From the NCBI GenBank assembly GCA_963743885.1, contig CAVURJ010000002.1, positions 177,706 through 241,705 of the forward strand: a stretch of 64,000 nt of DNA. The letters are read 5' to 3'. Under the pieces are notes generated by a model, which was not told the origin of the DNA, did no database searches, and worked only from the letters and a program-made list of their open reading frames with translations. This document shows positions 3,059-62,815 of this stretch, one piece after another. The position numbers and the translations under genes were made by a program. Numbering within the stretch: the stretch's first letter is position 1; every line of letters starts with the position of its first letter. The stretch comes from Candidatus Moraniibacteriota bacterium (GTDB lineage: Bacteria > Patescibacteriota > Minisyncoccia > Moranbacterales > UBA1568).

Positions 3059-3251
3059 AAGTAACTATCTCAAATCTCATGTTTTGAGAAAACATTCAAA
3101 TTTCGTGATAGAAAGCGTGAAAAGCGAGAAGGGCTATTAGTAATAACCCGACGAGCTTTGAAGGGTTTCTAGCCGAAATTTTGATGTTTTATCAGACAAG
3201 CCCCGGTTTTTGTCTTAACGCGGGCGGTGAGATTTGAGCTAGTTACTAAGG
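3059..3251. repeat. F1 TIR foldback element, copy 2
   Basis: TIRs agtaactatctcaaatctca ... tgagatttgagctagttact. Conserved core gaaaagcgagaagggctattagtaataacccgacgagctttgaagggtttctagccgaaatttt. Confidence 0.75.
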
Positions 3252-4627: not shown

Positions 4628-5308
4628 ATGCATTTTTTCAAGGCGTTGGAACATCTCATCCGCGAATATGCCCACGAGGTCCCGCTCGAGTGGTTTGTGC
4701 TGCTCGGCTCGTTCGCGGAGGAGGTCATAAGTCCGATCCCGTCCGCGCTCATCATGGGGACGGCTGGGTCGATCGCGCTCATGCAGGGGGCTGTTCCTGG
4801 TTATCTCGTTTTTCTTGTGCTCCTTGGTAATATCGGCAAGACGTTTGGATCGTGGATATACTATTTCCTTGGCGACCGACTGGAAGATCTGCTCATCGGC
4901 AGGATCACGAAATTCTTTGGCGTGAAGCATGAGGAGATCGAGAATATCGGCAAGCGTTTCACCGGGCATCACTGGAAGGACGGTGGCATCCTCTTCATCT
5001 TGCGCGCGATGCCGTTCGTGCCGACGACGCCGGTCTCTATCGCTGCCGGTATCATCAAGATGGACAAGCGGATATTTCTTTTGGCGACGTATGCGGGCAA
5101 TGTCATGAAGGACCTCGTCTATATCTATGCGGGCTATGCCGGTCTGGCGAAGCTTCAGACACTCTGGCGGGAGATTATTCCGGTCAAGGCCGGCATCGAT
5201 ATCCTCGTCGCGATCGGCATCATCGCATTCCTGGTGTTCCTCTATATTCATCGCGGTCGCGGAAAAGAGCTCCTGGCTCGCTGTGCGAATCATCTGACGA
5301 AGAAATGA
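4628..5308 (+). CDS. DedA/SNARE-associated (VTT domain) membrane protein
   Basis: Multi-TM protein with DedA-like GxxxGxxxG-type motifs (GNIGKTFGSWIYYFLG). It overlaps uvrB by 4 bp (ATGA). Confidence 0.72.
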   Translation: MHFFKALEHLIREYAHEVPLEWFVLLGSFAEEVISPIPSALIMGTAGSIALMQGAVPGYLVFLVLLGNIGKTFGSWIYYFLGDRLEDLLIGRITKFFGVKHEEIENIGKRFTGHHWKDGGILFILRAMPFVPTTPVSIAAGIIKMDKRIFLLATYAGNVMKDLVYIYAGYAGLAKLQTLWREIIPVKAGIDILVAIGIIAFLVFLYIHRGRGKELLARCANHLTKK

Positions 5309-7365
5309 GTATGCCAACATTTGATCTCAAAAGCGAATATCAGCCTTCAGGTGATCAGCCGCAAGCGATCGCTGCTTTGGTGCGCGGACTGGAAGCGGGG
5401 ATGCCCAAGCAGACACTTCTCGGCGTGACCGGGTCCGGCAAGACGTTTACGATGGCCAATGTCATCGCGCAGTCTGGCAAGCCAGCGCTCGTCATTGCGC
5501 ACAACAAGACGCTCGCGGCACAGCTAGCTCAGGAATACCAGGTATTCTTTCCGGACCACGCTGTGCATTATTTCGTCTCCTACTATGATTACTACCAGCC
5601 GGAAGCGTACATGCCGGTGACGGATACCTATATTGAGAAGGACGCACAGATCAATGAGGAGATCGATCGGTTGCGCCATGCGTCGACCCAGTCGCTTCTC
5701 ACGCGCCGCGATACGATTATCGTGGCATCGGTCTCGTGCATTTACGGTCTCGGCAGTCCTGAAGAATACGAGCGATCGAACCTGCGGCTCGAGGTCGGTA
5801 TGCCGGCATCGCGCACGGAGCTCCTCCACAAACTCGTCTCCATCTTTTTCTCACGCACCAATGCTGATATCGCGCCGGGGCAGTTCCGGAGCCTCGGCAA
5901 TCGCATCGAGATCATGCCGATTTCGGAGAAATACATCTATCTACTCGAGATCGTCGGCGGACGTATCGGTGCCATTACCAAGATCGATCCGGTCTCACAG
6001 AAGATCCTCGAGACGCCCAAAGCGATTTTCCTTTTTCCAGCCAAACACTTCATCACGGACAAGGACCGGCAGGAACAGGCGCTCCAATCTATCGCGCTCG
6101 AGCTCGAGCTTCGGCTTAAGGAGCTTGAAGCGGATGGTAAGTTGCTCGAGGCGGAACGGCTCAAGCGCCGGACGAACTATGATCTCGCCATGATGCGTGA
6201 GATGGGTTATACCAATGGCATCGAGAACTACTCCCGCCATCTCTCAGGCAAAAGCTCCGGTGAGTCGCCAGAGACGCTTCTCTCGTATTTCCCGCGCACA
6301 GCAGATGGCAAGCCAGACTTCATCACGATCATCGATGAGTCGCACGTGACTTTGCCGCAGCTCCGCGGCATGTATGCTGGCGACCAATCTCGCAAGAAGA
6401 CGCTCGTCGAATATGGTTTCCGTCTGCCGAGCGCGCTCGACAACCGTCCGCTTCGCTTCGAAGAATTCGAGGCGCGTGTTGGTCAGGTGATTTTCACGTC
6501 GGCGACGCCTTCGGACTATGAGCGCGAGGCGAGCGGCCAGATCGTTGAACAGGTCATTCGTCCGACGGGACTCTTGGATCCGGAAGTCGAAGTGAAGCCG
6601 ATCCGTGAGAAGGGAGAATATCCTGGTCAGATACAGGACTTTATCGCACAGACGGAGATCGAGGTCGAGAAGGGTGGTCGCGTCATCGCGACGACCCTGA
6701 CCAAGAAGATGGCCGAGGACTTGAGCACGTACTTGAAGGATAAGAAGATCAAAGCCGAGTACCTCCACAGCGATGTGAAGACGATTGATCGTATCAAGAT
6801 CCTGACAGCGTTCCGCAAGGGGGAGTTCGACTGTATTGTCGGCGTCAATTTGCTCCGCGAAGGTCTCGACCTGCCGGAAGTGACCTTCATTGGTATCCTC
6901 GACGCGGACAAGGAAGGTTTCCTTCGATCCGAGACGTCGCTCATCCAGATCATCGGGCGCGCGGCTCGCAATGCGGCCGGTCGCGTCATCCTGTATGCGG
7001 AGTCAATCACTGGGTCGATGCGCTATGCGCTCGACGAGACAGCTCGCCGCCGGACGCTCCAGATCGCCTACAATACGGAGCATGGCATCACGCCGCAGAC
7101 GATCAAGAAGAACATTCATGATATCACTGAGGCGCTCGAAAGCGAGCATGACCGGGCGGTCCGGGCCAACGTCGTATTGGATAGGGAAGTGTTTGCTAAG
7201 GATCCGAAGAAGCTTATCCGTCTCAAGGAGCGGGAGATGCAGGATGCTGTGAAGGTTCTCGACTTCGAGACTGCCGCGATATTGAGGGATGAAATAGCGG
7301 CATTGGAAGCGATATCTTACAAAGGTAAAGGAAAGATGACGAAGCCCCGTAGCAAAGTTTCGTAA
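5305..7365 (+). CDS. uvrB: excinuclease ABC subunit B (UvrB)
   Basis: The N-terminus FDLKSEYQPSGDQPQAI, Walker A GVTGSGKTFT, beta-hairpin region YVSYYDYYQPEAY and C-terminal UVR coiled coil all match UvrB. Confidence 0.97.
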   Translation: MSMPTFDLKSEYQPSGDQPQAIAALVRGLEAGMPKQTLLGVTGSGKTFTMANVIAQSGKPALVIAHNKTLAAQLAQEYQVFFPDHAVHYFVSYYDYYQPEAYMPVTDTYIEKDAQINEEIDRLRHASTQSLLTRRDTIIVASVSCIYGLGSPEEYERSNLRLEVGMPASRTELLHKLVSIFFSRTNADIAPGQFRSLGNRIEIMPISEKYIYLLEIVGGRIGAITKIDPVSQKILETPKAIFLFPAKHFITDKDRQEQALQSIALELELRLKELEADGKLLEAERLKRRTNYDLAMMREMGYTNGIENYSRHLSGKSSGESPETLLSYFPRTADGKPDFITIIDESHVTLPQLRGMYAGDQSRKKTLVEYGFRLPSALDNRPLRFEEFEARVGQVIFTSATPSDYEREASGQIVEQVIRPTGLLDPEVEVKPIREKGEYPGQIQDFIAQTEIEVEKGGRVIATTLTKKMAEDLSTYLKDKKIKAEYLHSDVKTIDRIKILTAFRKGEFDCIVGVNLLREGLDLPEVTFIGILDADKEGFLRSETSLIQIIGRAARNAAGRVILYAESITGSMRYALDETARRRTLQIAYNTEHGITPQTIKKNIHDITEALESEHDRAVRANVVLDREVFAKDPKKLIRLKEREMQDAVKVLDFETAAILRDEIAALEAISYKGKGKMTKPRSKVS

Positions 7366-10119: not shown

Positions 10120-10335
10120 CGTAACTCTCTCAAATCTCACCGCTAGTTATAGAAGAAACGCGAGGAGTGCTTGTCCGTAAAAATCACTCCCGTTCCGGCT
10201 GCAAAACCCGAAAAGCTTGTCGGGTTATTGCTAATAGCCCTGCCTACCGGCAGGCAGGCCTTCGCACTTTTCGACTTTTTCGCTCGAAACGTGAGCGATT
10301 TTTCCTGGACATGAGATTTGAGAGAGTTACTTGGC
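10120..10335. repeat. F1 TIR foldback element, copy 3 (inverted orientation, with a 20-bp internal insertion)
   Basis: TIRs gtaactctctcaaatctca ... tgagatttgagagagttac. The internal core is the reverse complement of the copy-2 core. It starts at the stop codon of 9418..10119 and is followed by gggtatact upstream of uvrA. Confidence 0.72.
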
Positions 10336-10386: not shown

Positions 10387-10437
10387 CCCTGTGAAATTCC
10401 GCCGGTAGGCGGACCAGCGAAGCTGGATTTCACAGGG
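10387..10437 (+). ncRNA. REP-like structured hairpin element, copy A (in the uvrA 5-prime leader)
   Basis: cctgtgaaat[tccgccggtaggcgga][ccagcgaagctgg]atttcacagg: a 10-bp outer stem enclosing two small hairpins. Homologous copies lie at 24341 and 30153. Confidence 0.55.
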
Positions 10438-10453
10438 TTAATGACCAGATACT

Positions 10454-13009
10454 ATGAAAGAATCCAAGAAACACAAGGAACCATCTGCGATGATCTCTGT
10501 TCGTGGCGCCCGGACGCACAATCTCAAGAATATTTCCGTCGACATGCCGCGCAATGCCATGGTGGTCTTCACTGGGCTTTCTGGCTCGGGCAAGTCGTCG
10601 CTCGCGTTTGATACCATCTTCGCCGAGGGACAGCGCCGCTATGTCGAGTCGCTCTCCGCATATGCGCGCCAGTTCTTGAATACGATGCAGAAGCCGGATG
10701 TCGATGAGATCCTCGGCCTGTCGCCGGCCATCTCGATCGACCAGAAATCAGCAAGCCGGAATCCTCGTTCGACCGTCGCCACCATCACGGAGATCTATGA
10801 TTATCTCCGCGTGCTGTTTGCACGTCTCGGACGGCCGCACTGTCTCGAATGCGGACGCGAGATCCAGAAGCTGTCCGTCGAGGAGATGATCGAGATCGTC
10901 TCTGATAAGGTGAAGGCGACCAAGAAGAAGGAAGGCGCTCTCATCATCGCGGCACCGGTCGTGCGTGGCCGCAAGGGCGAGTATTATCAGCTGCTCTACA
11001 ATGCGCTCGGCAAGGGCTTCAGCGAGATCTTCCTCGATGGGGAGCGCAAGAGTTTGCGCGAGCGCGTCATCCTTTCTAAGAATAAGAAGCACGATATCGA
11101 TCTCATCGTCGACGAGATACCGCTTCAGGAGTTCGGGAAGTTTCCCGAGACGTCCGCTGAGCGGCTCTCGGAAGCGGTGGAGCGTTCGCTTGAGGAGAGC
11201 GAGGGTTTGGTGAATATCCGCATCGCTGGGGAGACGCTTGTACTTTCGTCCAAGTTCTCTTGCCCGTATGACGGCTTCTCCTATCCAGAGGTAGAGCCGC
11301 GGCTCTTCTCCTTCAATTCACCGTACGGTGCTTGCGAGGCGTGCAATGGTCTCGGCACCAAGCATTTCTTCGGCGATGAGCCATGTGACGTCTGCCATGG
11401 GTCGCGTCTGCGTCCGGAGGCACTCCACGTGAAGATTGGTGGGAAGAATATCGTCGAGCTGACAGCTATGACCACTGTCGAGGCCAAGGCGTTCTTTGAT
11501 GGTCTTGAGCTCTCTGAGCGCGAGCGGCAGATCGCATCCGTAGTGCTGCGCGAGGTGGGCGGCCGTCTGCAGTTCCTGCTCGATGTCGGCCTCGACTATC
11601 TCTCTCTCGGCCGCCGCGCCAATACACTCTCGGGCGGCGAAGCGCAGCGCATCCGTCTGGCATCCCAGCTTGGGTCCAAGTTGGTCGGTGCGCTCTATGT
11701 GCTCGACGAGCCGACGATCGGCCTCCACAGCCGTGACAATGACCGGCTCATCGCGACACTTCAGGCACTCCGCGATCTCGGCAATACTATCATCGTCGTC
11801 GAGCATGACGAGGATACGATCTTTGCGTCCGACTACATCGTCGATATCGGCCCTGGCGCCGGCGTGCACGGCGGCGAGGTCGTGGCCTCCGGCTATCTCG
11901 ATGATCTCCTGACAGCCAAGAAAAATACATCCGGATCACTCACGCTCGCGTACCTGCGCGGCGAAGAGCGGATCGCTATCCCGGAGAAGCGCCGTGGCAA
12001 GGAGAAAGGCGCGCTCAAGGTCCGCGGTGGCAATCTCTACAATATCAAGGGCATGGATCTCGATATCCCGCTCGGCCGCTTCGTCGCGATCACGGGCGTA
12101 TCCGGTTCGGGCAAGTCGACGCTCATGTATGAAATCGTCCACAAGAATCTCCAGGTTCGCCTCGATCGTCGCTATCGTGACAACAAGACGTTCAATTGCC
12201 AAGCATTCTCTGGATCGGAATATCTTTCCCGTGCCGTGCTCATCGATCAGAGCCCGATCGGTCGTACGCCGCGGTCCAACCCGGCGACGTATACCGGCGC
12301 GTGGACACATGTCCGCGATATGTTCGCTGCGACCGAGGAGGCCCGTGTGCGCGGCTGGAAGGCCGGCCGCTTCTCGTTCAACCGTCCCGGCGGACGCTGC
12401 GAGACGTGCGAGGGCAACGGTTTCATCGCGGTGGAGATGCACTTCTTGCCGACAGTCTATGTGGAGTGCGATGTCTGCAATGGCAAGCGCTTCACCAAAG
12501 AGACACTCGAAGTGAAGTACAAGCACAAGAGTGTCTATGACGTGCTTGAGATGACGATTGAGGAAGCGTACGCGTTCTTCTTCGATATTCCAGCGATCGC
12601 TGACCGGCTCAAGACCTTGAATGAAGTGGGCCTCGGCTACCTCAAGCTCGGCCAGAGCGCGACCACACTTTCGGGTGGCGAGGCGCAGCGCGTGAAGATC
12701 TCAAGCGAACTCTATCGCCAGCATGTCGAGCGCACTATCTACCTCCTCGACGAACCGACCATCGGGCTCCACTACGAGGATGTGAAGAAGCTTATAGAGA
12801 TCCTCGATCGCCTCGTGCAGAAGGGGAATACCGTCCTTGTCATCGAGCACAATATGGATCTCATCAAGTCTGCTGACTACGTGATCGATATCGGTCCCGA
12901 AGGCGGCGTCGGCGGCGGTCAGGTCGTCGCCTACGGCACGCCGGAAGAAGTCTCGCTCAAGAAGGCTTCGCATACGGGGATGTATCTCCGCAGAGTGCTC
13001 AAGCGCTAG
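10454..13009 (+). CDS. uvrA: excinuclease ABC subunit A paralog lacking the insertion domain (UvrA, 851 aa)
   Basis: Two ABC modules ([10 protein letters not shown] / [18 protein letters not shown] x2) and zinc-finger Cys pairs are present. Compared with the second uvrA in the window, about 100 aa are missing between [16 protein letters not shown] and CDVCHGSRL (the insertion domain). The UvrB-binding-domain-like segment is retained. Confidence 0.93.
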
Positions 13010-13013
13010 CGCG

Positions 13014-13048
13014 AGGTATCATGTATCTTGTATCAAGTAGTATGTATG
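13014..13048. promoter_or_regulatory. phased heptamer array (5 x nGTATnn), directly after the uvrA stop
   Basis: ggtatca tgtatct tgtatca agtagta tgtatgg: GTAT recurs every 7 bp. Confidence 0.6.
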
Positions 13049-13132: not shown

Positions 13133-13167
13133 TTCATACGAGATACAAAATACTAAATACCAAATAC
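13133..13167. promoter_or_regulatory. phased heptamer array (5 x nnnATAC), inverted partner of 13014
   Basis: ttcatac gagatac aaaatac taaatac caaatac. Confidence 0.6.
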
Positions 13168-14100: not shown

Positions 14101-14132
14101 ATACATAATACGTAATACTGAATACAAGATAC
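14098..14132. promoter_or_regulatory. phased heptamer array (5 x nnAATAC)
   Basis: tttatac ataatac gtaatac tgaatac aagatac, between two terminator hairpins. Confidence 0.6.
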
Positions 14133-14158: not shown

Positions 14159-14207
14159 GGTATACTATATACATAGTTCTTCATACGTTATACATAATAC
14201 ATAATAC
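14159..14207. promoter_or_regulatory. phased heptamer array (7 units ATAC, one degenerate) overlapping the -10 tggtatact of gene 14222
   Basis: ATAC ends at 14165, 14172, (14179 degenerate), 14186, 14193, 14200, 14207: exact 7-bp phasing. Confidence 0.6.
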
Positions 14208-14221
14208 GTAATATAACTCTT

Positions 14222-22740: not shown

Positions 22741-22887
22741 TAGCTGAACGGAGTGCAGGCTCGCTTCGGCAGAGTTTCAGCGAGGCGAGTAAAATCGGGT
22801 CGAATACCCCGCGGCTTGCTCGCCTCGATTCGAGTCGAAGCTGGCCCGCCTAAGACCGGAACTTACTCCGGGGCGAATGCCATTTAT

Positions 22888-25736: not shown

Positions 25737-25750
25737 TTGCATCCCAATCC

Positions 25751-25785
25751 TCTTCCTTCTTCTTCTTCTTCTTCTTCTTCTCTTT
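25751..25785. repeat. (CTT)n microsatellite, about 8-10 units
   Basis: tcttccttcttcttcttcttcttcttcttctc is intergenic, 15 bp after the DUF1801 gene stop. Confidence 0.9.
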
Positions 25786-25831
25786 CGCTCCCTCATCCCT
25801 TCACGCCTTCCTTTCCGCATTTCTTTTGATA

Positions 25832-25865
25832 GTGTCATAATTCCGCGGCCGCGGAATTATGACAC
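25832..25865. repeat. 34-bp perfect palindrome P1 (gtgtcataattccgcggccgcggaattatgacac)
   Basis: A perfect inverted repeat with the sequence gcggccgc at its centre. An identical copy lies at 26617. Confidence 0.85.
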
Positions 25866-25989
25866 GGCGCTAAGAAACGATACACGCTATTTTCTATGAT
25901 GGAATATGAGGGTAAGATAGAGGTAAGATGGAGATAAGACGGGTATAGGGAGAGGTAAGAATGTGGGTGGATAGGATAAGCAGAAGCAT

Positions 25990-26625
25990 ATGTATAAATT
26001 CGGCCCGGTACAACAGAAGATCCTTCTTTTGTTAGTCGGAGGTATCGCGCTTGGATTGGAGACGTCATCAATTCGGTACTATCGGAAGCTGGGGATGCTG
26101 ATGAAGGACCTGAAGGAGATCGATGCTCGCAATTTGCGTCGCTCGATGGGACGTTTGTGTCTGCAGAAGCTTGTGGAGGAAGTGTACCTTCCCGACGGTT
26201 CGTTCAAGCTGGTCTTGACGGAGGCGGGGAAACGGCAGGCGCGTATCCAGCTTCTTTTCGGTAAATCAATCCGTTTCCGGAATCCGAAGCGTTGGGATAA
26301 GAAGTGGCGCATCGTTATGTTCGATATCCCAGAAAAGGAGAAGAAGTTCCGCGATATCTTACGCGAACACCTGCGCGAATTGAGATTTTATAAGCTGCAG
26401 CATAGTGTCTTCGTGTCCCCGTATCCGTGCGAGAAGCCGCTGTTGGAGTTGGCGGCCCTCTATAAGGCGGGGCCGTATGTAAGGGTAGTGACGGCCGAGC
26501 GGATAGATAACGAAGAGAAGCTCAAGGACCATTTCTTCCGTTCGAAGCCTGTGAAATCGAAAAAATCTTTGAAATCCGCGAAGCTTTCAAAAAGAAAAAA
26601 CAGTTCAAAAAATTCCGTGTCATAA
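25990..26625 (+). CDS. PaaX-like transcriptional regulator (N-terminal wHTH plus Cas2-like-fold C-terminal domain)
   Basis: WRIVMFDIPEKEKKFRDILREHLRELRFYKLQHSVFVSP is the Cas2-like fold of the PaaX C-terminal domain. Its stop codon lies inside a 34-bp perfect palindrome. Lys/Ser-rich tail. Confidence 0.5.
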   Translation: MYKFGPVQQKILLLLVGGIALGLETSSIRYYRKLGMLMKDLKEIDARNLRRSMGRLCLQKLVEEVYLPDGSFKLVLTEAGKRQARIQLLFGKSIRFRNPKRWDKKWRIVMFDIPEKEKKFRDILREHLRELRFYKLQHSVFVSPYPCEKPLLELAALYKAGPYVRVVTAERIDNEEKLKDHFFRSKPVKSKKSLKSAKLSKRKNSSKNSVS

Positions 26626-26650
26626 TTCCGCGGCCGCGGAATTATGACAC
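26617..26650. repeat. 34-bp perfect palindrome P2 (identical to P1)
   Basis: It contains the stop codon of the PaaX-like gene (…aattccgtgtcaTAA…). A T-rich run follows. Confidence 0.85.
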
Positions 26651-26696
26651 GTGTTTTCTATAATGAAATATCGTTTTATCCTTAACAGGAACGGGT

Positions 26697-26985: not shown

Positions 26986-27019
26986 GTAACATAATTCCAC
27001 GGTCGTGGAATTATGTTAC
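26986..27019. terminator. palindrome P3 (variant of P1/P2) plus T-run: likely bidirectional terminator
   Basis: gtaacataattccacggtcgtggaattatgttac followed by tttttgttttg. It lies between the convergent genes 26697..26972 (+) and 27095..27901 (-). Confidence 0.6.
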
Positions 27020-27094
27020 TTTTTGTTTTGAGGATTTTTGATAAGAAAAAACCGCCGCACAGCTTGGCTGGCGACGGCGTTGTGCCCGGGGTGG

Positions 27095-28934: not shown

Positions 28935-29062
28935 CGGACAAACGAGGAGGACGACATGTAAAAACCCAGCTCAAGGGCTAGGTTTTTGTTTTTTGGTTTG
29001 AGAGGACCTTGCTTCGCTTTGGCTTGTAGGGCGGGTAGAGGCGTCGGAAATTTGCGAAACCA

Positions 29063-30152: not shown

Positions 30153-30201
30153 CTCATGAAATCCGACTTTGTCGGTCCGCCTATTGGCGGAATTTCATAG
30201 G
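30153..30201 (-). ncRNA. REP-like hairpin element, copy C (reverse orientation)
   Basis: The reverse complement reads cctatgaaat[tccgccaataggcgga][ccgacaaagtcgg]atttcatgag. The second inner hairpin, ccagc/gctgg in A, becomes ccgac/gtcgg here, which is a compensatory change. Confidence 0.55.
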
Positions 30202-43861: not shown

Positions 43862-44170
43862 GCGGCGCCGGCAGAAACAGGGAGAAGGGCTCATAGAGCT
43901 CTCCTCCCTTTCTTTTTTGCATAACGGGTATTCAACCCTATGTTCCCGTCACTCGCTCGGTAACGAAAGCTTACTTTCGTTACGCTCGCTCCGTTAGGGA
44001 ATAACGGGTATTTACCCCAGGGCAAGCCCTGGACCCAAGAAACGAACTGATGTTCGTTTCTTTCCGCGGCAAGCCGCGGGGTATTGAACCCGATTTTACC
44101 TGCACTGCGCTCGGAAATGAGAGCTAGCTCTCATTTCGCTCGCTTCGTTTGGTAATAAAAAAGACGCTAG
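43862..44170. repeat. mosaic cluster of palindromic hairpins (BIME-like), copy 1
   Basis: Five successive hairpins: gctcggtaacgaaagcttactttcgttacgctcgc; ccagggcaagccctgg; aagaaacgaactgatgttcgtttctt; ccgcggcaagccgcgg; gcgctcggaaatgagagctagctctcatttcgctcgc. They are interspersed with gggtatt(c/t)a(a)ccc direct motifs. Confidence 0.65.
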
Positions 44171-45369: not shown

Positions 45370-46839
45370 ATGCCGAAGCTCTGGGAAAAATCAGTAACGC
45401 TCGAAGCGTTTAAGAAAAAAAACAGGCTACCGGAAGTGCCGGGAGTGTATTTTTTCTTGGGAAAGAAGAAGGAGGTCCTCTATATCGGCAAGGCGACGAT
45501 TCTTCGTGACCGGGTGAAGAGCTATTTCTCGCAGGACATCATGGAGACGCGCGGGCCGAAGATTGCTCTTATGCTCGGGAAGATCCGGTCCATCGCGTAT
45601 CGGAAGACTGATTCGGTGCTTGAGGCGCTCATCCTCGAGACCAATCTCATCAAGGAGCATCAGCCGTCGTACAATACCGACCAGAAGGATGATAAGAGCT
45701 ACAATCATGTCGTCATCACGGATGAACTGTTCCCGCGCGTCTTGGTCATAAGAGGAAGAGATTTAGAAAAATATCCTCCTGTCATTCCCGCGAAGGCGGG
45801 AATCCAGAAAAAGAAATCCTGGATCCCGGGTCAAGCCCGGGATGACATAAGAATAAAATATTCATTCGGGCCGTTCCCATCGGGTGGCGGATTGCGTGAA
45901 GCGATGAAGATCGTGCGGAGGCTTTTCCCATATCGGGATACGTGCGTGCCAACGGACAGTCAACAGTCAACAGCTAACAGTCAACAGCGAACAGAGAACA
46001 ATCAGCAGTCAACAGCGAACAGAGAACAATCAGCAGTCAACAGTCAGCAGCTAATAGTTAGCAATGAACAAAAAGCAGTCATCAGTCAACGAAGAAAAAA
46101 GGCCGTCCCTCAAGCGTGTTTTAATAGGCAGATTGGTCTGTGTCCGGGAGTATGTACTGGTGAGATATCCGCTAAGGAATATGCACGGATAATCAATCAT
46201 ATCCGGCTGTTCTTCGAAGGACGGAAAAGTATGCTGGTGAAGCGGCTCGAGCGCGAGATGAAGGCGGCTGCCAAGGCGCTCGAGTTTGAGCGGGCTGGCG
46301 AGATCAAGAAGACGCTTTTCGGTCTGCAGCATATCCAGGATATGGCGCTTGTGAAGAATGACGAACGACTCACGACTCACGACTCACGACAGGGAGTGCG
46401 GATTGAAGCGTATGATGTGGCGCATCTCATGGGAGAGGCGTCGGTCGGTGTGATGACGGTCGTTTCCGGAAGTTATGCGGATACCGATGAGTATCGGCAG
46501 TTCAGGTTGCGAGGGGATCATAAGGGCAATGATCTCGCAGCGCTCGAGGAAATATTGTTCCGCCGCCTGAAGCATCCTGAGTGGGGACGGCCTGATGTCA
46601 TTGCGGTTGATGGATCATTCCTCCAGCTCGGCGTCGCTGAGCGCCTTTTTGACGGACTTCCTGAGAAGCCGCTTCTGGTTGGCGTTGTGAAGGACGCGCG
46701 ACACAAGGCGAAGGAGATCATCGGGTTGCCGGCGGGCTTCGCTCGGCTTGAGACTGATATATTGCTCGCGAATAACGAGGCACACCGCTTCGCTATCGCT
46801 TTTCATCGCAAGCGTCGCGGGAAGGAATTCTTGAAGTAA
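45370..46839 (+). CDS. uvrC: excinuclease ABC subunit C (UvrC), short form with two in-frame repeat insertions
   Basis: GIY-YIG domain (GVYFFLGKKKEVLYIGKA), Cys motif FPYRDTC ... CFNRQIGLCPGVC, UVR domain (EMKAAAKALEFERAGEIKK) and the RNase H-like endonuclease domain (RIEAYDVAHLMGEA). The C-terminal HhH2 domain is absent or short. Confidence 0.92.
   Translation: MPKLWEKSVTLEAFKKKNRLPEVPGVYFFLGKKKEVLYIGKATILRDRVKSYFSQDIMETRGPKIALMLGKIRSIAYRKTDSVLEALILETNLIKEHQPSYNTDQKDDKSYNHVVITDELFPRVLVIRGRDLEKYPPVIPAKAGIQKKKSWIPGQARDDIRIKYSFGPFPSGGGLREAMKIVRRLFPYRDTCVPTDSQQSTANSQQRTENNQQSTANREQSAVNSQQLIVSNEQKAVISQRRKKAVPQACFNRQIGLCPGVCTGEISAKEYARIINHIRLFFEGRKSMLVKRLEREMKAAAKALEFERAGEIKKTLFGLQHIQDMALVKNDERLTTHDSRQGVRIEAYDVAHLMGEASVGVMTVVSGSYADTDEYRQFRLRGDHKGNDLAALEEILFRRLKHPEWGRPDVIAVDGSFLQLGVAERLFDGLPEKPLLVGVVKDARHKAKEIIGLPAGFARLETDILLANNEAHRFAIAFHRKRRGKEFLK
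45781..45846 (+). repeat. 66-bp palindromic element inserted in-frame in uvrC (translates as VIPAKAGIQKKKSWIPGQARDD)
   Basis: gtcattcccgcgaaggcgggaatccag ... ctggatcccgggtcaagcccgggatgac: two inverted similar halves, each itself a hairpin. It replaces the roughly 8-aa loop that E. coli UvrC has between the GIY-YIG domain and FGPFP. Confidence 0.65.
45957..46095 (+). repeat. tandem repeat block inside uvrC (28-bp unit x2 perfect, plus degenerate cagtcaacag sub-repeats)
   Basis: cagtcaacagcgaacagagaacaatcag occurs twice in tandem at about 45978-46033. The block is read as QQSTANSQQRTENNQQSTANREQSAVNSQQ and expands the loop inside the UvrC Cys motif from about 11 to about 57 aa. Confidence 0.8.
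46366..46388 (+). repeat. heptamer tandem repeat (cgactca)x3 inside uvrC
   Basis: cgactcacgactcacgactcacgac encodes TTHDSR. Confidence 0.8.
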
Positions 46840-47037: not shown

Positions 47038-47305
47038 TTTGTATTTTGTAGAGACTTCATTCTGAAGCCTTTCCCGAGGCCAGAATCTTCCGGAGAAACT
47101 CTGGAGTCCGAGCGGGCACGGTTCCGAAGGAGAGCAAGGACGGAAGGTAATGGGACCGCCACGCCGGGGCGGGACCATGATTCTCCGGAAGGTTGCTGGT
47201 CCGAGTGGGAAGGCGAGTCGCGGCAGGAGTCTTTACAGCATCTTAAAAAGAGAGTACACTGGAAAGCAATTCTGCGTTTTTCCATCCTTCCAAGAACAAC
47301 GCCCT

Positions 47306-50104
47306 ATGTCAGGCAAGAAATCGGTGATTGAGGTACGCGGCGCGCGGGTCAACAATCTGAAGAATATAGACGTCGACATACCGCGCGATGCGCTGGTTGT
47401 CATCACTGGGCTTTCCGGTTCCGGCAAGTCATCCCTGGCTTTTGATACTCTCTTTGCGGAAGCGAATCGGCGATATGTCGAGTCGCTTTCTTCGTATGCG
47501 CGCAATTTCCTCGATGGTTTTGAGAAGCCGGACGTCGATGCGATTCGCAATCTCTCGCCGGCCATCTCGATTGATCAGAAGAGCGTGTCGCGTTCTCCGC
47601 GTTCGACGGTCGGTACCATGACCGAAGTCTATGACTATCTGCGCGTGCTCTTTGCCAAGTTGGGCGTGCCGCATTGCCCGAAGTGCGGCAATCTGCTCGC
47701 GCGCAAGAGTGTCCGCGAGATCCTCGAGGAGATCCTCCTCTTTCCTGACAAGACACCGCTCGTCTTCCTCGCTGAGAGTCCGCTTTTCGTCGGTAAGACG
47801 GAAAAGGAAGCGCTCCAGCTCGTGAACGGCTGGGGATACGTCAAGGCATGTGTACGCGGCGAGATCATGCCGATCGCCGAGGCTATGGCAGCTGCATCAT
47901 CCGAGTCGGCTGACGGTGTCATGGCAGTGATCGACCGGCTCGTGCTCGATCGTGAGCGCCCAGACAAGGAGCGCATCCTCGATTCGCTCCAGACAGCGTT
48001 TCAGGTGGGCCAGGGGACGCTCCTCTTGCGCGTGAATGGCGATGAGGAGATACGGAGCTACAACGAGGAATACCGCTGCGAGGCGTGCGGCATCCATTTG
48101 CCTGAGTTCACTCCGAGTCATTTTTCATTCAACAATCCAGAAGGCGCGTGCGCGAAGTGCGCGGGCTTGGGCGTGACGCTCGAGTTTGATCCGGAGCTCG
48201 TCATCCCGAACAAGAATCTATCGCTATCTGAAGGAGCGATCCGTCCGTGGAGCAAGATGAATGGCGACCGTCCTGGGGGCAACGGGCATATGGCTCAGCT
48301 GCGCGACCTCGCGAAGCGTATGAAGTTCTCGCTCGATGATCCGATCAAGAAGCTTTCGACGAAGCAGTATGCCGCCGTGCTCCATGGCGAGACAAATGGA
48401 AAGGAAGATGCCTTCCCGGGTGTCATCGCGCTCCTCGAGCGCAAGTATCGCGAGACGCGCTCCGATCATCTGCGTGCCGAGATTGAAGAGTATATGCTGA
48501 CCAAGGTCTGTCCGGAATGCAGGGGGAGGCGCCTCTCGAAGGCGTCGCTCGCCGTGCGTCTTGGTGGGTATTCCATCGATGATCTCGTGCAGCTTTCTGC
48601 TGAGAATTTCCTCTCAGTGTTGCCGGCGTTCCGCACAGCGCTTTTGCCACAGGGGGAGAAGCGCCTCATCGAGCCGCTCTTCCGTGAGATGGATGTGCGT
48701 ATGAAGGCAGTGGAGAAGGTGGGTCTCGGTTACCTTGAGCTCTGTCGGAGTGCCGATACACTCTCGGGTGGCGAGGCACAGCGCATCCGACTGTCGGTCC
48801 AGATGAAGTCTGGTCTTTCTGGCATCATCTATGTTCTTGATGAACCGTCGGTCGGGCTCCACAGCCGCGATACGGAGCGGCTCATCAATGCACTTGAAGA
48901 CTTGCGCGGTGCGAACAACTCGCTCGTCGTCGTCGAGCACGATGTCGCGATCATGCGCCGGGCCGACTATATCATCGACATGGGGCCAGGCGCTGGTAGC
49001 GAGGGTGGCGAGGTCATCTTTGCCGGTACGCCGGACAAGCTCCTCCGCTCGAAGCTTCTGACTGGCCAGTATCTTTCCGGCAAGCGCCAGGTTTCTGATA
49101 AGAAGAAGACGCGCAAGGGGAGCGGTGATTTCATCTCCGTCATCGGGGCGTCCGAGCACAATCTGAAGGATGTCGACGTGAAGCTGCCGCTCGGCATGAT
49201 GGTTGCGGTGTCGGGTGTGTCTGGTTCCGGCAAGTCATCGCTCGTGCACGATATTCTCGCCCGGGCGCTCTCCAAGCATTTCTATCATGCCAAGACTGAG
49301 CCGGGAGCCCACAAGAAGATCGAGGGTCTGGGCAATATTGATAAAGTGATCTCCGTCAATCAGGATCCGATCGGCCGCACGCCTCGCTCCAATGCGGCGA
49401 CGTATACGGGCGTCTTCAGCCTGATTCGTGATCTGTATGCAGCGACCTCAGAAGCGGAGCGCGAGAAGTATTCCGCGAGCCATTTCTCCTTCAATATGCG
49501 CGGCGGACGTTGCGAGGCGTGTCAGGGCGGCGGGCTCAAGAAGATCGAGATGTATCTCCTGCCGGATGTCTATGTGCCGTGCGAGGTCTGCCAGGGGACG
49601 CGCTACAACGCGAAGACGCTCTCTATCGAGTATCGCGGTATGAATATCGCTCAGGTGCTCCGTATGACCGTGTCCGAGGCGCGGCGGTTCTTCCTCGACC
49701 AACCGATGATCGAGGAGAAGCTCCGAGTGCTCGAGGAAGTCGGTCTCGGATACCTCGTTCTCGGCCAGAGTGCGACCAATCTTTCCGGCGGTGAGGCGCA
49801 GCGTATCAAGCTTGCGACCGAGCTTGCCCGCAAGTCGACCGGCAAGACACTCTATATATTGGATGAGCCGACGATCGGTCTGCACTTCGAGGATGTACGC
49901 CGGCTCTTGGAGGTGCTTGAGGCACTCGTCGACAAGGGCAATACTGTGCTCGTGGTTGAACACAACATTGACGTCATCAGCGCTGCGGACTGGGTGATCG
50001 AGCTCGGTCCTGATGGTGGTGAGAAGGGTGGCGAGCTAGTCTTCTCTGGACCGCCGGAAAGACTGAAGGCTTGCAAGAAGAGCTTTACCTCAAAATACTT
50101 GTAA
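47306..50104 (+). CDS. uvrA: excinuclease ABC subunit A (UvrA, full-length 932 aa)
   Basis: Start at [20 protein letters not shown] (ORF 47150 trimmed). Both ABC modules, the UvrB-binding domain and the insertion domain (about 110 aa between GLG and [10 protein letters not shown]) are present. Confidence 0.95.
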
Positions 50105-50217
50105 GAATTTTTAATTTTATAATTTTAAATTTTTAAAGAATCTCTGAATTTTCAATATTTAAACATTCAGTAATTCTGGAATTATTTTAAAATTAGAAAT
50201 TTAAAATTTAAAATTTC
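50105..50217. promoter_or_regulatory. AT-rich 7-bp periodic tracts (aatttt / aaattta units) between uvrA and 50223
   Basis: aaattta aaattta aaatttc perfect at about 50197-50217; aatttt starts at 50106, 50113, 50121, 50128. Confidence 0.45.
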
Positions 50218-52449: not shown

Positions 52450-52484
52450 GTATAGCGTATATCGTATCAAGTATCTCGTATGGA
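52450..52484. promoter_or_regulatory. phased heptamer array (5 x GTATnnn) directly after the pilC stop
   Basis: gtatagc gtatatc gtatcaa gtatctc gtatgga. Confidence 0.65.
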
Positions 52485-52505: not shown

Positions 52506-53900
52506 ATGTCTTTTCTTATACAAAATACAAAATACAAAATACAGGATACGGGACTGAAGGGTTTCACGCTCATCGAGACGCTCGTGTTTCTCTTTGTCTT
52601 TTCATTGGTTTCAATCGTCTTTTATCAGGCGTATGCAACTGGAATACGGACGATTATCGAGACGAAGAACCGTCTCGGCGCGACAGCGCTTGCCAATCAG
52701 AAGATGGAGATAATCCGGAGTATCGCGTATGACGATATCGGTACGACAAGCGGCATTCCGAGCGGGACGCTCGCTCAAGATGAGACAATCAGTGTCAATA
52801 CGACCCGGTATCAGGTCCATACTTATGTCGGCCATGTCGATGACTTGTTTGATGGAGCGCTCGCTACCGGTACTGATAGCGTGCCGAATGATTACAAGCG
52901 CGTACGTCTAGAGGTCTCATGGGGTTCGGGCGGAACTGATCAGCAAGTCGTGATTTTCGGCAGATTCTCTCCGAATGGTATCGAGACGCCGGCTGGTGGC
53001 GGTATACTTTCTATCAACGTGCTTGATGCTTCAGGATCAGGAGTATCTGGTGCATCGGTACGTATCAGAAATCCATCTGAGTCGGTGGATTTGACTGCGA
53101 TTTCTGACCTGACCGGAAACGTCACTTCGGTCGGTGCCCCGGCTGGATCGCAGAATTATGAGCTGACTGTCTCCAAATCAGGCTATTATGGCGCGCAGAC
53201 CTATGCACCGACAGCATCGTTTACGCCAGTGGACATCCACGCCTCGGTTGTTGATGCTGCACTCAACCAGGCGACAATCGTGATGGATCGGTACGCTGAT
53301 ATCAGTCTTCATTCCGTGGATTCTTTTGGTACCGATGTTCCAGGGGTTGATATGGATATCGAAGGCGGTCGTCATTTTGGTACGAATGTCACGGGTGCAC
53401 CTCCCGTAGTATCAGAGACGTATAGCTTTTCGGACAGTATCACGACGGGTAGTTCCGGCGAGGAGGATATTCAGGATCAGAGCTACGGCACGTATACGGT
53501 GAGCAGTGTGTCTAAATCAGGTTATACCTTTTATAAGCTCTCTCCAGACGGGCCGGCCTATAATCAGCTTTCTGCCTTGGCTGGCGTGAACAATACTGTC
53601 TCGCTCGTTATGCTCGATAATGCCGTGAGTTCGCTCTGGGTAAAGGTGAATGATAAGAGCGTTCCGCCAGATCCTGTTTCGGGAGCATCCGTGCATCTTT
53701 CGGAGAGCATTTCAGGATATGATGCGACCGTCACGACGGATGCGTTCGGCTATGCATTTTTCCCGACGGCGCTGCCGGCGCTTGTCGCGGGAACGTATGA
53801 TCTTGAAGTAAGTGCGACTGGATTTGATACGGATACCGGAACGGTTTCGATCGGTGGAGCAGCGCTTGTCACGGAAACCGTATCGCTTCAAGCCGAATAG
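52506..53900 (+). CDS. large type IV pilin-like protein (prepilin N-terminal methylation motif)
   Basis: G/FTLIETLVFLFVFSLVS is a class III signal/N-methylation site. 464 aa, Thr/Ser/Gly/Val-rich beta-like body. The annotated 5-prime end is built from ATAC heptamer repeats, so the start is uncertain. Confidence 0.62.
   Translation: MSFLIQNTKYKIQDTGLKGFTLIETLVFLFVFSLVSIVFYQAYATGIRTIIETKNRLGATALANQKMEIIRSIAYDDIGTTSGIPSGTLAQDETISVNTTRYQVHTYVGHVDDLFDGALATGTDSVPNDYKRVRLEVSWGSGGTDQQVVIFGRFSPNGIETPAGGGILSINVLDASGSGVSGASVRIRNPSESVDLTAISDLTGNVTSVGAPAGSQNYELTVSKSGYYGAQTYAPTASFTPVDIHASVVDAALNQATIVMDRYADISLHSVDSFGTDVPGVDMDIEGGRHFGTNVTGAPPVVSETYSFSDSITTGSSGEEDIQDQSYGTYTVSSVSKSGYTFYKLSPDGPAYNQLSALAGVNNTVSLVMLDNAVSSLWVKVNDKSVPPDPVSGASVHLSESISGYDATVTTDAFGYAFFPTALPALVAGTYDLEVSATGFDTDTGTVSIGGAALVTETVSLQAE
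52514..52548. promoter_or_regulatory. phased heptamer array (5 x nnnATAC), inverted partner, inside the annotated 5-prime end of the pilin gene
   Basis: cttatac aaaatac aaaatac aaaatac aggatac. In frame 52506 it translates as IQNTKYKIQDT. Confidence 0.65.
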
Positions 53901-56043: not shown

Positions 56044-56085
56044 CTATACCCTATACCCCATAACCTATCACCTTCGCGCTATAGG
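56044..56085. promoter_or_regulatory. phased heptamer array (CTATAcc-like, 6 units with one degenerate), inverted partner, upstream of the pilM promoter
   Basis: ctatacc ctatacc ccataac ctatcac (cttcgcg) ctatagg, then tggtatgat (-10) at 56104. Confidence 0.55.
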
Positions 56086-60034: not shown

Positions 60035-60070
60035 AGGTTTTCATCTCGAAATCCAAACATTTTCTCGAGA

Positions 60071-60096
60071 CATGAGATTTTGAACAGTTACTAAGG
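60071..60096. repeat. F1 solo terminal repeat (tgagattttgaacagttactaagg)
   Basis: Matches only the right TIR of copy 2 (tgagatttgagctagttactaagg). It directly abuts the ATG of the CapA gene. Confidence 0.55.
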
Positions 60097-62639: not shown

Positions 62640-62815
62640 AGATTCAGTTGTTTGAAAGCATTTTTTATTACCAAACGAAGCGAGTGAAACGAAAGTACAC
62701 TTTCGTTTTCGAGCGAGTGCAGGTAAAATCGGGTTAAATACTCTCCGCCTCTGGCGGAGAGGGATTAGGTCTAGGGCTTGCCCTGGGGTGAATACCCGTT
62801 GTCGAAGTTTTTCTC
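62640..62815. repeat. mosaic palindromic cluster, copy 2 (inverted relative to copy 1)
   Basis: ttttttattaccaaacgaagcgag-[hairpin]-gtgcaggtaaaatcgggtt ... ccagggcttgccctggggt(g/a)aatacccgtt is shared with the reverse complement of 43919-44165. The central hairpins differ (tccgcctctggcgga here). Confidence 0.6.

What the first reader, a model, noticed from the sequence alone, without database searches (positions are those of the whole stretch)
45779..46095. uvrC carries two in-frame repeat insertions: a 66-bp palindromic element and a 28-bp x2 tandem repeat inside the Cys motif
Element 1 (45781-45846) is a double-hairpin palindrome with gtcat/atgac ends. It is translated as VIPAKAGIQKKKSWIPGQARDD, where canonical UvrC has an 8-aa loop, and it resembles RPE-type palindromic elements that insert in-frame. 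Element 2 (45957-46095) splits the conserved C-x(11)-C-x-x-x-C motif (FPYRDTC ... CFNRQIGLCPGVC) with about 46 extra residues. These are built from a perfect 28-bp tandem duplication read in two different frames, meaning a DNA-level repeat with no protein-level periodicity. Because 28 is not a multiple of 3, gain or loss of one unit would frameshift uvrC and abolish nucleotide excision repair, a potential switchable mutator or contingency locus. A (cgactca)x3 heptamer run at 46366-46388 has the same property.
Basis: partly seen in the sequence, partly recalled or inferred. Interest (0 to 1): 0.75.

Follow-up and report, generated by a model that had tools for sequence, protein, structure and literature searches.

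The report
Repeat DNA inserted in-frame in uvrC
The DNA-repair gene uvrC of this tiny "candidate phyla radiation" bacterium (Candidatus Moranbacteria) carries three in-frame insertions made of repetitive DNA, sitting in flexible protein loops; this is a tidy new example of selfish or slippage-made DNA tolerated inside a gene, and nothing yet shows it is an on/off switch.

Summary
uvrC (45370-46839, 489 aa) carries three in-frame inserts.

1. A 66-bp palindrome at 45781-45846.
2. A 147-bp array of 21 heptamers at 45950-46096, containing a perfect 28-bp x2.4 repeat. It lies between Cys1 and Cys2 of the Fe-S motif.
3. (ACGACTC)x3.7 at 46365-46390.

Element 1 is an inverted pair of Ssn-related motifs. 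Its first hairpin matches the 28-nt Neisseria Transformation Sequence at 27/28 positions.

Element 2 is a heptanucleotide simple-sequence repeat. Period 7 is the commonest tandem-repeat period in Moranbacteria loci.

Across 120 UvrC homologues these three sites are hypervariable. In every relative whose DNA I read, the expansions are heptamer arrays or GTCAT...ATGAC hairpin elements. AlphaFold gives pLDDT below 50 only at these three sites.

Related populations hold coexisting in-frame alleles:
- an 81-bp presence/absence element;
- a roughly 315-bp recombined patch that carries the same dyad.

The contingency or mutator-switch idea is arithmetically possible but unsupported. No out-of-frame allele was seen, the array is degenerate, and four strain clusters with such loops show no length variation. 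No strain-level data exist for this genome.

Verdict: tolerated repeat DNA in permissive loops, a new variant of a known kind, of moderate interest.

The parts
45370..46839 (+). Compact uvrC ORF, 489 aa. Homologues without inserts are about 414-423 aa. It has a GIY-YIG domain, a Cys-rich Fe-S motif, a UVR motif and an RNase H-type endonuclease domain. No C-terminal (HhH)2 domain was detected.
   Evidence: Catalytic and ligand residues are invariant in the alignment (Y27, Y38, R48, E85, N102, D349, D414, H472 and the four Cys).
45781..45846 (+). Element 1: a 66-bp (22-codon) palindromic dyad made of two Ssn-related motifs in inverted orientation, joined by an ATCCAG/CTGGAT stem and closed by GTCAT/ATGAC. 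It is translated as residues 138-159.
   Evidence: It is the only copy in the 64-kb window. AF2 pLDDT is below 50 at residues 140-156.
45780..45807 (+). Hairpin A, TGTCATTCCCGCGAAGGCGGGAATCCAG. It matches the NTS consensus CGTCATTCCCGCGMAVGCGGGAATCYRG at 27/28 positions and contains the dRS3 core ATTCCC-N8-GGGAAT.
   Evidence: SRM regex hit. Consensus taken from PMC11893778.
45819..45847 (-). Hairpin B (minus strand), TGTCATCCCGGGCTTGACCCGGGATCCAG. It matches the SRM degenerate motif.
   Evidence: Its 22-mer CCCGGGTCAAGCCCGGGATGAC occurs exactly in more than 120 stretches of species-representative genomes from many phyla and in 14 stretches of viral contigs.
45943..46155 (+). Cys-rich Fe-S motif. 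Cys codons lie at 45943-45945 (C192), 46117-46119 (C250), 46141-46143 (C258) and 46153-46155 (C262), giving C-X57-C-X3-Q-X3-C-X3-C.
   Evidence: Consensus CX6-14CX3H/QX3CX3C is from PMC10085695.
45950..46096 (+). Element 2: a degenerate array of 21 heptamers (consensus CAGTCAA), 147 bp or 49 codons, lying between Cys1 and Cys2. It is stop-free only on this strand.
   Evidence: It is the longest loop-2 expansion among the 120 homologues. AF2 pLDDT is about 45-63 across it.
45978..46043 (+). Perfect 28-bp (four-heptamer) tandem repeat, 2.36 copies. It is the youngest layer of the array.
   Evidence: 100% matches, score 132.
46365..46390 (+). Perfect (ACGACTC)x3.7 heptamer run in the linker between the UVR motif and the endonuclease domain. 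It encodes RLTTHDSR.
   Evidence: 34 of 120 homologues have 3-11 extra residues here. AF2 pLDDT is below 50 at residues 326-340.

Best explanation
Two kinds of repetitive DNA that circulate in this lineage have colonised uvrC at three surface linkers that tolerate extra residues.

(1) A 66-bp Ssn-related-motif (SRM) dyad.
- It is a miniature palindromic element of the NTS/dRS3 family and carries no gene of its own.
- It arrived either by element insertion or, as shown in a related population, by homologous-recombination import of a uvrC patch that carries it.
- It survives because it is 22 codons long and open in the frame used.

(2) Heptanucleotide simple-sequence repeats.
- I infer they grew by replication slippage, unequal exchange or intra-array conversion.
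- Only arrays whose total length is a multiple of three, and whose sense strand lacks stop codons, can persist in a gene under purifying selection.

The encoded peptides are hydrophilic, probably disordered loops that leave the two nuclease domains and the four Fe-S cysteines intact. On this reading the inserts are tolerated passengers, not a designed switch.

Shown: the identity of the elements, the variability of the loops, strain-level gain/loss and mosaicism in relatives, and the low-confidence structure at the inserts.

Inferred: neutrality, the slippage mechanism, and that the protein still works.
For: Identity of element 1.
- Both hairpins match the published SRM motif, against a mean of 0.44 hits in shuffled windows.
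- Hairpin A matches the NTS at 27/28, including the GTC before the palindrome and the C after it. The Ssn paper reports these as critical for cleavage and binding.
- The same 22-mer lies downstream of another GTCAT hairpin in the opposite orientation in many phyla. The strict SRM pattern scores this in 27 of 122 copies, and more are visible by eye.
- There is a sub-threshold Rfam hit to FtrB, which has the same two hairpins.

Relatives carry the same family of element.
- P0006 has the dyad at the same loop, 63/66 nt identical. The genes themselves are 64% identical at the nucleotide level and 40% at third codon positions.
- P0006 is not among the query's 18 nearest homologues.
- P0006 differs from its population-mate P0123 only by a roughly 315-bp divergent patch carrying the dyad.
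- P0002, the closest relative, has a 53-bp variant in loop 2.

Heptamers.
- Period 7 accounts for 34 of 98 tandem-repeat arrays in 176 kb of Moranbacteria loci, against 6 arrays of period 6 and 3 of period 8.
- The loop expansions of P0015, P0066, P0012, P0010 and P0002 are heptamer arrays or GTCAT...ATGAC hairpins at the DNA level.
- Heptanucleotide long SSRs are a known dominant class in SSR-rich genomes (Mrazek 2007, as cited in PMC4679880).

Recent mobility into uvrC.
- An 81-bp in-frame presence/absence polymorphism separates otherwise near-identical alleles.
- That 81-bp insert is 89% identical to intergenic repeats in this window.

Structure and conservation.
- The only pLDDT<50 segments are 140-156, 223-247 and 326-340.
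- Catalytic and Cys residues are invariant.
- Neighbouring genes keep a constant length (UvrA 931-932 aa) while UvrC ranges 436-527 aa.
Against: - No functional test shows that this UvrC is active.
- Why uvrC in particular accumulates inserts is unexplained. In the loci read, mid-gene heptamer arrays and SRMs occur only in uvrC. My choice of loci was biased towards uvrC genes with inserts, so this enrichment is not robust.
- The perfect 28-bp duplication is recent, and 28 is not a multiple of 3. A simple gain or loss would have passed through an out-of-frame allele, unless it arose by length-neutral conversion.
- The dyad is single-copy in 64 kb. No ssn-like gene was found in the window.
- No target-site duplication is evident, so the insertion mechanism is unknown.
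Confidence: 0.7

Rival explanations
1. Contingency locus. Slippage in the 7-bp or 28-bp units switches uvrC OFF and ON, producing mutator or NER-deficient subpopulations.
For: - The unit lengths are not multiples of 3, and simulated +/-7 and +/-28 variants truncate the protein at residues 204-239 or 347-358.
- There is a perfect 66-bp stretch of 28-bp repeat and a perfect 3.7-copy heptamer run.
- Any second indel inside the 147-bp array restores the frame, since in the consensus unit all three frames encode similar Q/S/T/N peptides. Reversion would therefore be easy.
- The array length differs widely between species.
Against: - The array is degenerate (73% matches), unlike classical phase-variable tracts.
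- Only 2-4 perfect copies are present.
- All 120 homologues, and all strain variants inspected, are in-frame.
- Four 90% clusters with such loops, 17 sequences in all, show no length variants.
- The one apparently truncated allele (P0126) was a scaffold gap.
- The perfect repeat can be explained by length-neutral intra-array conversion.
- No population data exist for this genome.
Confidence: 0.12
2. The SRM dyad works at the DNA level inside uvrC. An Ssn-type ssDNA nuclease would cut it, modulating transformation and recombination at the NER locus. This would explain the recombined patches and the conserved DNA sequence.
For: - The match to the NTS is 27/28, and the positions critical for Ssn binding and cleavage are present.
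- The element is 95% conserved while synonymous sites in the gene are near saturation.
- The dyad sits in the middle of a roughly 315-bp imported patch in P0006.
- Type IV pilus genes lie next to the locus.
- In Neisseria, NTS/dRS3 cluster near variable genes and alter transformation.
Against: - No ssn gene was found in the window.
- Only one dyad occurs in 64 kb, and there are no true SRMs in about 160 kb of flanking Moranbacteria DNA, whereas Ssn-linked genomes carry hundreds.
- High conservation is equally explained by recent spread.
Confidence: 0.1
3. The inserts are adaptive protein segments, for example flexible Q/N/S/T-rich linkers that tune UvrB/UvrC docking or Fe-S chemistry, retained for their peptide.
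For: The same three sites are expanded in many lineages. The first part of insert 2 is predicted to be helical (residues 196-222).
Against: - Contents differ completely between close relatives: dyad versus heptamers versus other hairpins at the same loop.
- The sequences are conserved as DNA repeats, not as peptides.
- Many homologues have minimal loops (C-X7-C).
- pLDDT is low across the inserts.
Confidence: 0.05
4. Assembly artefact or decaying gene. The repeat counts or the dyad are mis-assembled, or uvrC is no longer functional.
For: The sequence comes from a metagenome-derived contig. Repeats do break assemblies of relatives at such elements (the L331 gap).
Against: - The repeats (66 bp of perfect repeat, a 147-bp array) are shorter than typical reads.
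- The ORF is intact and every invariant residue is present.
- The same kinds of insert recur in independent assemblies from many samples.
Confidence: 0.03

Closest known systems
Ssn-related motifs (SRM), the Neisseria Transformation Sequence (NTS) and dRS3 repeats (PMC11893778, Nat Commun 2025)
   Same: Hairpin A matches the 28-nt NTS at 27/28 and contains ATTCCC-N8-GGGAAT. Both hairpins fit the SRM degenerate motif. Both are hairpin-forming. Exact copies are found across phyla.
   Different: - Here two motifs form a compact 66-bp inverted dyad with an 11-nt spacer.
- It lies in-frame in the middle of a protein-coding gene of a Patescibacteria genome.
- It is single-copy in 64 kb, with no ssn gene nearby.
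- The paper describes intergenic clusters flanking genes and does not mention in-frame or intragenic copies.
Rickettsia palindromic elements (RPE): selfish palindromic DNA inserted in-frame in genes (reviewed in PMC10969869)
   Same: A palindromic repeat translated in-frame within a housekeeping gene, at a position compatible with the fold.
   Different: RPEs are about 150 bp, fall into ten Rickettsia families and are present in dozens of copies per genome. This element is 66 bp and single-copy in the window. Its sequence relationship to RPEs was not tested.
Heptanucleotide long SSRs and direct repeats: Mrazek 2007 as cited in PMC4679880; TAACTGA repeats of Beggiatoaceae, Cyanobacteria and Bacteroidetes; Nostoc heptamer repeats (bioRxiv 10.1101/2022.06.06.494920)
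   Same: Tandem 7-nt units are the dominant repeat period in the lineage. They are mostly intergenic and close to gene ends. Which orientation is tolerated depends on the stop codons in the unit.
   Different: Here the arrays sit in the middle of a gene and are translated, and the units differ (CAGTCAA, CGACTCA). From memory, the cyanobacterial STRR3 unit is CAACAGT, a circular permutation of CAGTCAA. I could not verify this in the library.
Phase-variable contingency loci with intragenic SSRs (Haemophilus, Neisseria and Campylobacter type; my own knowledge)
   Same: The SSR unit is not a multiple of three and lies inside an ORF, so a change in unit number shifts the frame.
   Different: Classical loci have long perfect tracts and documented ON/OFF variants. 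Here the array is degenerate and no OFF allele was seen.
Rfam RF02748 FtrB (Francisella sRNA B)
   Same: The consensus contains the same two hairpins (GUCAUUCCCGCG..GCGGGAAUC and AUCCC.G.GUCAAGC.CG.GGAU).
   Different: The score is 31.3 bits against a gathering threshold of 66, so this is not a member. The resemblance most likely reflects a copy of the same type of repeat inside that sRNA.

Membership tests
SRM / NTS (Ssn-related motif) repeats | Matches the degenerate motif HGTCWYN(0-2)YYVSBRHN(0-5)WNVSBRGN(0-2)RNCYNB, or the NTS 28-mer with at most one mismatch | tested here: met
   hits at 45780-45807(+) and 45819-45847(-). Shuffled windows give a mean of 0.44 hits. The NTS match is 27/28, against the consensus quoted.
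SRM / NTS (Ssn-related motif) repeats | A 20-50 nt inverted repeat that forms a hairpin as ssDNA | tested here: met
   both hairpins form. dG is -20.8 kcal/mol for the dyad, z = -5.2.
SRM / NTS (Ssn-related motif) repeats | Many copies per genome (hundreds in SRM-rich species) | tested here: not met
   only this dyad in 64 kb. The rest of the roughly 500-kb contig could not be read.
SRM / NTS (Ssn-related motif) repeats | An ssn gene (a small cd10448 GIY-YIG protein) in the genome, often flanked by SRMs | tested here: inconclusive
   a GIY-YIG motif scan of six-frame translations finds only UvrC in the window. The whole genome was not available.
SRM / NTS (Ssn-related motif) repeats | Bound and cut as ssDNA by the cognate Ssn nuclease | not testable with these tools
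   This needs a biochemical assay.
Rickettsia palindromic elements (RPE) | A palindromic repeat inserted in-frame in ORFs and encoding a conserved peptide | tested here: met
   the same 22-aa peptide is in-frame in two UvrC lineages.
Rickettsia palindromic elements (RPE) | About 100-150 bp, belonging to one of the RPE sequence families, with dozens of copies per genome | tested here: not met
   The length is 66 bp and the element is single-copy in the window. Sequence similarity to RPE families was not tested.
MITE | Terminal inverted repeats and no coding capacity of its own | tested here: met
   GTCAT...ATGAC ends extended by the inverted SRM arms.
MITE | Target-site duplication and a cognate transposase | tested here: inconclusive
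   no direct repeat flanks the three uvrC copies. No transposase was identified.
Phase-variable contingency locus | An intragenic SSR whose unit is not a multiple of 3 | tested here: met
Phase-variable contingency locus | A long perfect tract | tested here: not met
   the heptamer array has 73% matches. The perfect parts are 2.4 x 28 bp and 3.7 x 7 bp.
Phase-variable contingency locus | ON and OFF unit-number variants within populations | tested here: inconclusive
   No strain data exist for this genome. In relatives no OFF alleles and no length variants were seen in four clusters.
Heptanucleotide long SSR | Tandem 7-nt units far beyond chance, with period 7 dominant in the genome | tested here: met
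   34 of 98 arrays have period 7.
UvrC (excinuclease ABC subunit C) | GIY-YIG domain, Cys-rich motif, UVR motif and RNase H-type endonuclease domain, with catalytic residues present | tested here: met
UvrC (excinuclease ABC subunit C) | C-terminal (HhH)2 domain | tested here: not met
   no HhH hit. The protein ends just after the endonuclease domain. Homologues without inserts are about 414-423 aa.

The most novel reading that the evidence does not exclude
The permissive loops of uvrC are a lineage-wide hotspot. Mobile hairpin repeats (SRM dyads that fit the published target motif of Ssn ssDNA nucleases, and 81-bp MITE-like elements) and heptamer SSRs are continually gained, lost and exchanged by recombination between coexisting strains. 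On this reading the dyad acts as a recombination or transformation modulator inside a repair gene, and the non-triplet SSRs make nucleotide excision repair stochastically switchable in CPR bacteria.
Probability: 0.1. Interest if true: 0.8.

Novelty: new variant of a known kind. Interest (0 to 1): 0.45.

Why it matters
It places the newly described Ssn/NTS hairpin repeat family in Patescibacteria, and inside a coding sequence where it is translated.

It shows that the first spacer of the UvrC Fe-S motif can apparently stretch from 7 to 57 residues. That is useful for anyone modelling this little-understood domain.

It gives a concrete locus where coexisting in-frame structural alleles and recombination mosaics can be followed in natural CPR populations.

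If unit-number switching were shown, this would be a rare case of a phase-variable excision-repair gene.

Tried and rejected
- Source contig. An exact look-up of the window's UvrC found no contig on record, so the rest of the genome could not be read.
- Strain variants. The metagenome scan found nothing closer than 60% identity.
- Dyad peptide in other proteins. An 86-aa concatenation of the four open frames found only seven weak, short hypothetical ORFs and did not even recover P0001, so the result is uninformative.
- Rfam. It gave only a sub-threshold FtrB hit, plus a spurious Ysr283 hit on the heptamer array.
- A truncated UvrC (P0126, 255 aa) looked like a possible OFF allele. It is a 100-N scaffold gap that starts exactly at a polymorphic insertion site.
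- ssn genes. Motif scans in the window, and next to SRMs in the fetched loci, found nothing. The second scan used a crude regex and is weak evidence.
- Enrichment in uvrC. I considered claiming that SRMs and heptamer arrays are statistically enriched in uvrC (12 of 34 heptamer arrays, and all true SRMs). I rejected it because I chose the relatives for having expanded loops.
- Out-of-frame intermediate. I considered that the 28-bp duplication proves one existed. I rejected it as not compelled, because intra-array conversion can create the perfect repeat without changing the length.
- STRR3. My recollection that the cyanobacterial STRR3 unit is CAACAGT could not be verified in the paper library.
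Full report
**What is there**

The ORF at 45370..46839 (+) encodes a 489-aa UvrC homologue.
- Pfam finds GIY-YIG (residues 25-102), UVR (290-320) and the UvrC RNase H endonuclease domain (343-476).
- Sequence and fold searches hit solved UvrC domains.
- Named homologues come from Candidatus Moranbacteria, in the Patescibacteria/CPR. An identical protein (P0001) sits on a 500,284-bp public contig.
- uvrA follows at 47150-50104. uvrB (5305-7365) and a uvrA-like paralogue (10454-13009) are also in the window.
- Homologues without inserts are about 414-423 aa, so this copy is about 70 residues longer.

**Check of the observation**

Every feature is present at the stated coordinates.

Element 1 (45781-45846, 66 bp):
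- It folds as ssDNA into a three-way junction with dG -20.8 kcal/mol and z = -5.2.
- It is translated as VIPAKAGIQKKKSWIPGQARDD.
- It is single-copy in the window, even when three mismatches are allowed.

Element 2:
- TRF finds the perfect 28-bp x2.4 repeat at 45978-46043.
- TRF also finds a period-7 array, x13.6, 73% matches, at 45956-46050.
- Read in register, there are 21 heptamers over 45950-46096, which is 147 bp or 49 codons.
- So the 28-bp unit is four heptamers.

Heptamer run: (ACGACTC)x3.7 at 46365-46390 is perfect.

Cys motif:
- The four invariant cysteines are C192, C250, C258 and C262.
- The motif is therefore C-X57-C-X3-Q-X3-C-X3-C, against the published CX6-14CX3H/QX3CX3C (PMC10085695).

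**What element 1 is**

- Its first hairpin with flanks, TGTCATTCCCGCGAAGGCGGGAATCCAG, matches the 28-nt Neisseria Transformation Sequence CGTCATTCCCGCGMAVGCGGGAATCYRG at 27/28 positions. It contains the dRS3 core.
- The second hairpin, read on the minus strand, also fits the degenerate Ssn-related motif of that study (PMC11893778).
- These are the only convincing SRM hits in 64 kb. Shuffled windows give a mean of 0.44 hits.
- The element is therefore an inverted SRM pair with an 11-nt spacer.
- The 22-mer of hairpin B occurs exactly in more than 120 stretches of species-representative genomes. These span Alpha- and Betaproteobacteria, Actinomycetota, Bacteroidota, Binatia, Bacillota and other CPR groups. 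It often lies 12-88 nt downstream of another GTCAT hairpin in the opposite orientation.
- Both modules also occur in viral contigs.
- In low-GC genomes these copies are intergenic or at gene ends. None of 23 lies deep inside a long ORF, so a mid-gene, translated copy is unusual.
- Rfam gives only a sub-threshold hit to Francisella FtrB, whose consensus holds the same two hairpins.

**What element 2 is**

It is a heptanucleotide simple-sequence repeat.
- In 176 kb of Moranbacteria loci, period 7 is by far the commonest tandem-repeat period: 34 of 98 arrays, against 6 arrays of period 6 and 3 of period 8.
- In this window the other ten heptamer arrays lie between genes or at gene starts.
- Heptanucleotide long SSRs are a recognised dominant class in SSR-rich prokaryotes, and stop codons in the unit limit where they can sit (PMC4679880).
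- Accordingly, CAGTCAA and CGACTCA are stop-free in all three sense frames but carry TGA on the other strand.

**The three sites are hypervariable across the family**

In an alignment of 120 homologues, insertions are concentrated mainly at:
- loop 1, after residue about 134;
- the Cys1-Cys2 loop;
- the linker before the endonuclease domain;
- a minor site near residue 403.

The Cys1-Cys2 spacer ranges from 7 residues (LPESGKP) to the 57 seen here, which is the maximum.

For the relatives whose DNA I read, the expansions are heptamer arrays with various units (CAGTCAA, CAACAAT, TCAGAAA, CAATAAC, AGAGGTA) or GTCAT...ATGAC hairpin elements.

The query's nearest relatives each have a different content:
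- P0002 has heptamers in loop 1 and a 53-bp SRM-dyad variant in loop 2.
- P0003 and P0007 have the plain 16-residue loop 2.

The inserts are therefore young and lineage-specific, not ancient protein segments.

**Evidence on dynamics from related populations**

- P0006 carries the same dyad at the same loop, 63/66 nt identical. The two genes are only 64% identical, and 40% at third codon positions. P0006 is not among the query's 18 nearest homologues.
- P0006 is identical in DNA to its population-mate P0123, except for a roughly 315-bp patch centred on the dyad. That patch is about 80% identical to the query, against 63% elsewhere. The dyad therefore entered that lineage by homologous recombination of a uvrC segment.
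- A third coexisting allele, P0115, differs from P0123 by an 81-bp in-frame insertion inside the GIY-YIG domain. That insert is 89% identical to intergenic repeats in this very window, at 44079-44157 and 62666-62741.
- Each of the three alleles is seen in two or more contigs.
- All variants observed are in-frame.
- Clusters at 90% identity whose UvrC has heptamer or hairpin loops show no length variation: 449x3, 451x6, 428x5, 445x3.

**Structure**

An AlphaFold2 model built on 90 homologues has mean pLDDT 78. Its only segments below 50 are 140-156, 223-247 and 326-340, which are the three insert sites. The nuclease domains are confident. All catalytic and cluster-binding residues are invariant.

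**Interpretation**

Most likely (confidence about 0.7), the inserts are tolerated repeat DNA in permissive loops.
- One is a miniature SRM dyad that arrived by insertion or recombinational import.
- The others are heptamer arrays grown by slippage.
- Both were filtered by selection for a length that is a multiple of three and for a stop-free frame.

The contingency-switch idea (about 0.12):
- It rests on correct arithmetic and on the recent perfect 28-bp repeat.
- It has no supporting variant data.
- The perfect repeat could also arise by length-neutral conversion within the array.

A DNA-level role for the dyad as an Ssn target that influences recombination (about 0.1):
- The exact motif and the mosaic patch suggest it.
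- No ssn gene and no other SRMs were found.

An adaptive-peptide reading and an artefact reading are both unlikely.

**Novelty**

In-frame palindromic repeats (Rickettsia RPEs; PMC10969869), SRM/NTS repeats and heptanucleotide SSRs are each known. New here:
- an SRM dyad translated inside a gene of a CPR bacterium;
- a 57-residue stretch inside the UvrC Fe-S motif;
- direct evidence that uvrC alleles with different repeat inserts coexist and recombine in related populations.

Interest is moderate.

Noticed in passing
window 13016-13047, 13143-13167, 14101-14126, 14190-14213, 28981-28999, 50106-50136, 50186-50216, 52456-52481, 52518-52543, 56044-56068: Ten further heptanucleotide tandem repeats with A/T-rich units such as ATACAAA, ATACATA and AATTTTT. 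Most lie in short gaps next to gene ends or starts. Period 7 dominates the tandem repeats of this lineage (34 of 98 arrays in 176 kb). Whether they have a regulatory role is unknown.
   Followed up: partly
window 52506-53900: Pilin-like ORF with a prokaryotic N-terminal methylation motif at residues 18-39. If the annotated start is right, a perfect (ATACAAA)x3.7 run lies within its first 13 codons. Homologous genes in relatives (L191 16625-18076, L192 7675-9102) also have heptamer runs at the 5' end.
   Followed up: no
window 25832-25866, 26617-26651, 26986-27020: Perfect 35-bp palindromes GTGTCATAATTCCGCGGCCGCGGAATTATGACACG, plus one 77% variant. They bracket a PaaX/Cas2-like ORF (25990-26625) and the small Cys-rich ORF that follows it. 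They share the GTCAT...ATGAC ends of the uvrC element.
   Followed up: partly
window 43921-44003(-), 44079-44157(-), 62666-62741(+), fragment 22789-22819: A MITE-like repeat family of about 80 bp. A copy 89% identical to these is an in-frame presence/absence polymorphism inside the GIY-YIG domain of uvrC in another Moranbacteria population (L329 6001-7404 versus L330 1747-3069). One scaffold (L331) breaks exactly at that site.
   Followed up: yes
L001 3206-4588 versus L330 1747-3069: These two uvrC alleles are identical in DNA except for a roughly 315-bp divergent patch that carries the SRM dyad. This is a recombination mosaic within one population. P0130 suggests a second breakpoint near the heptamer site before the endonuclease domain.
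   Followed up: partly
window 1956-1989, 3214-3247, 10298-10331, 60059-60092 (and inverted copy 3059-3114): A conserved motif, ...GAGATTTGAG.AGTTACT, lies immediately before to about 150 bp upstream of several ORF starts, including the uvrA-like paralogue. It could be a promoter or 5'-UTR element.
   Followed up: no
window 10388-10432 and 30157-30201; also 1833-1930, 3130-3201, 10193-10289: More intergenic palindromic repeat families. UvrC homologues P0019 and P0029 carry a loop-1 peptide (IYPVKSSIAGPSKTEFHRA) that looks like a translated palindrome. A link to the 10388/30157 repeat is only my impression from the sequences and was not tested.
   Followed up: no
window 45370-46839 and homologues: The whole clade has a compact UvrC (about 415 aa without inserts) with no detectable C-terminal (HhH)2 domain. 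The window also holds two uvrA-type genes, one of 851 aa without a hit to the Pfam UvrA DNA-binding domain and one of 932-984 aa depending on the start chosen.
   Followed up: partly
L329 12297-13404; L003 458-1510: Reverse-transcriptase genes lie within a few kb of uvrC in relatives. One is paired with a bAvd gene, as in diversity-generating retroelements. No link to the repeats was examined.
   Followed up: no
window 25748-25802: A CTT/TCT-rich microsatellite (about 55 bp) lies just upstream of the first 35-bp palindrome.
   Followed up: no
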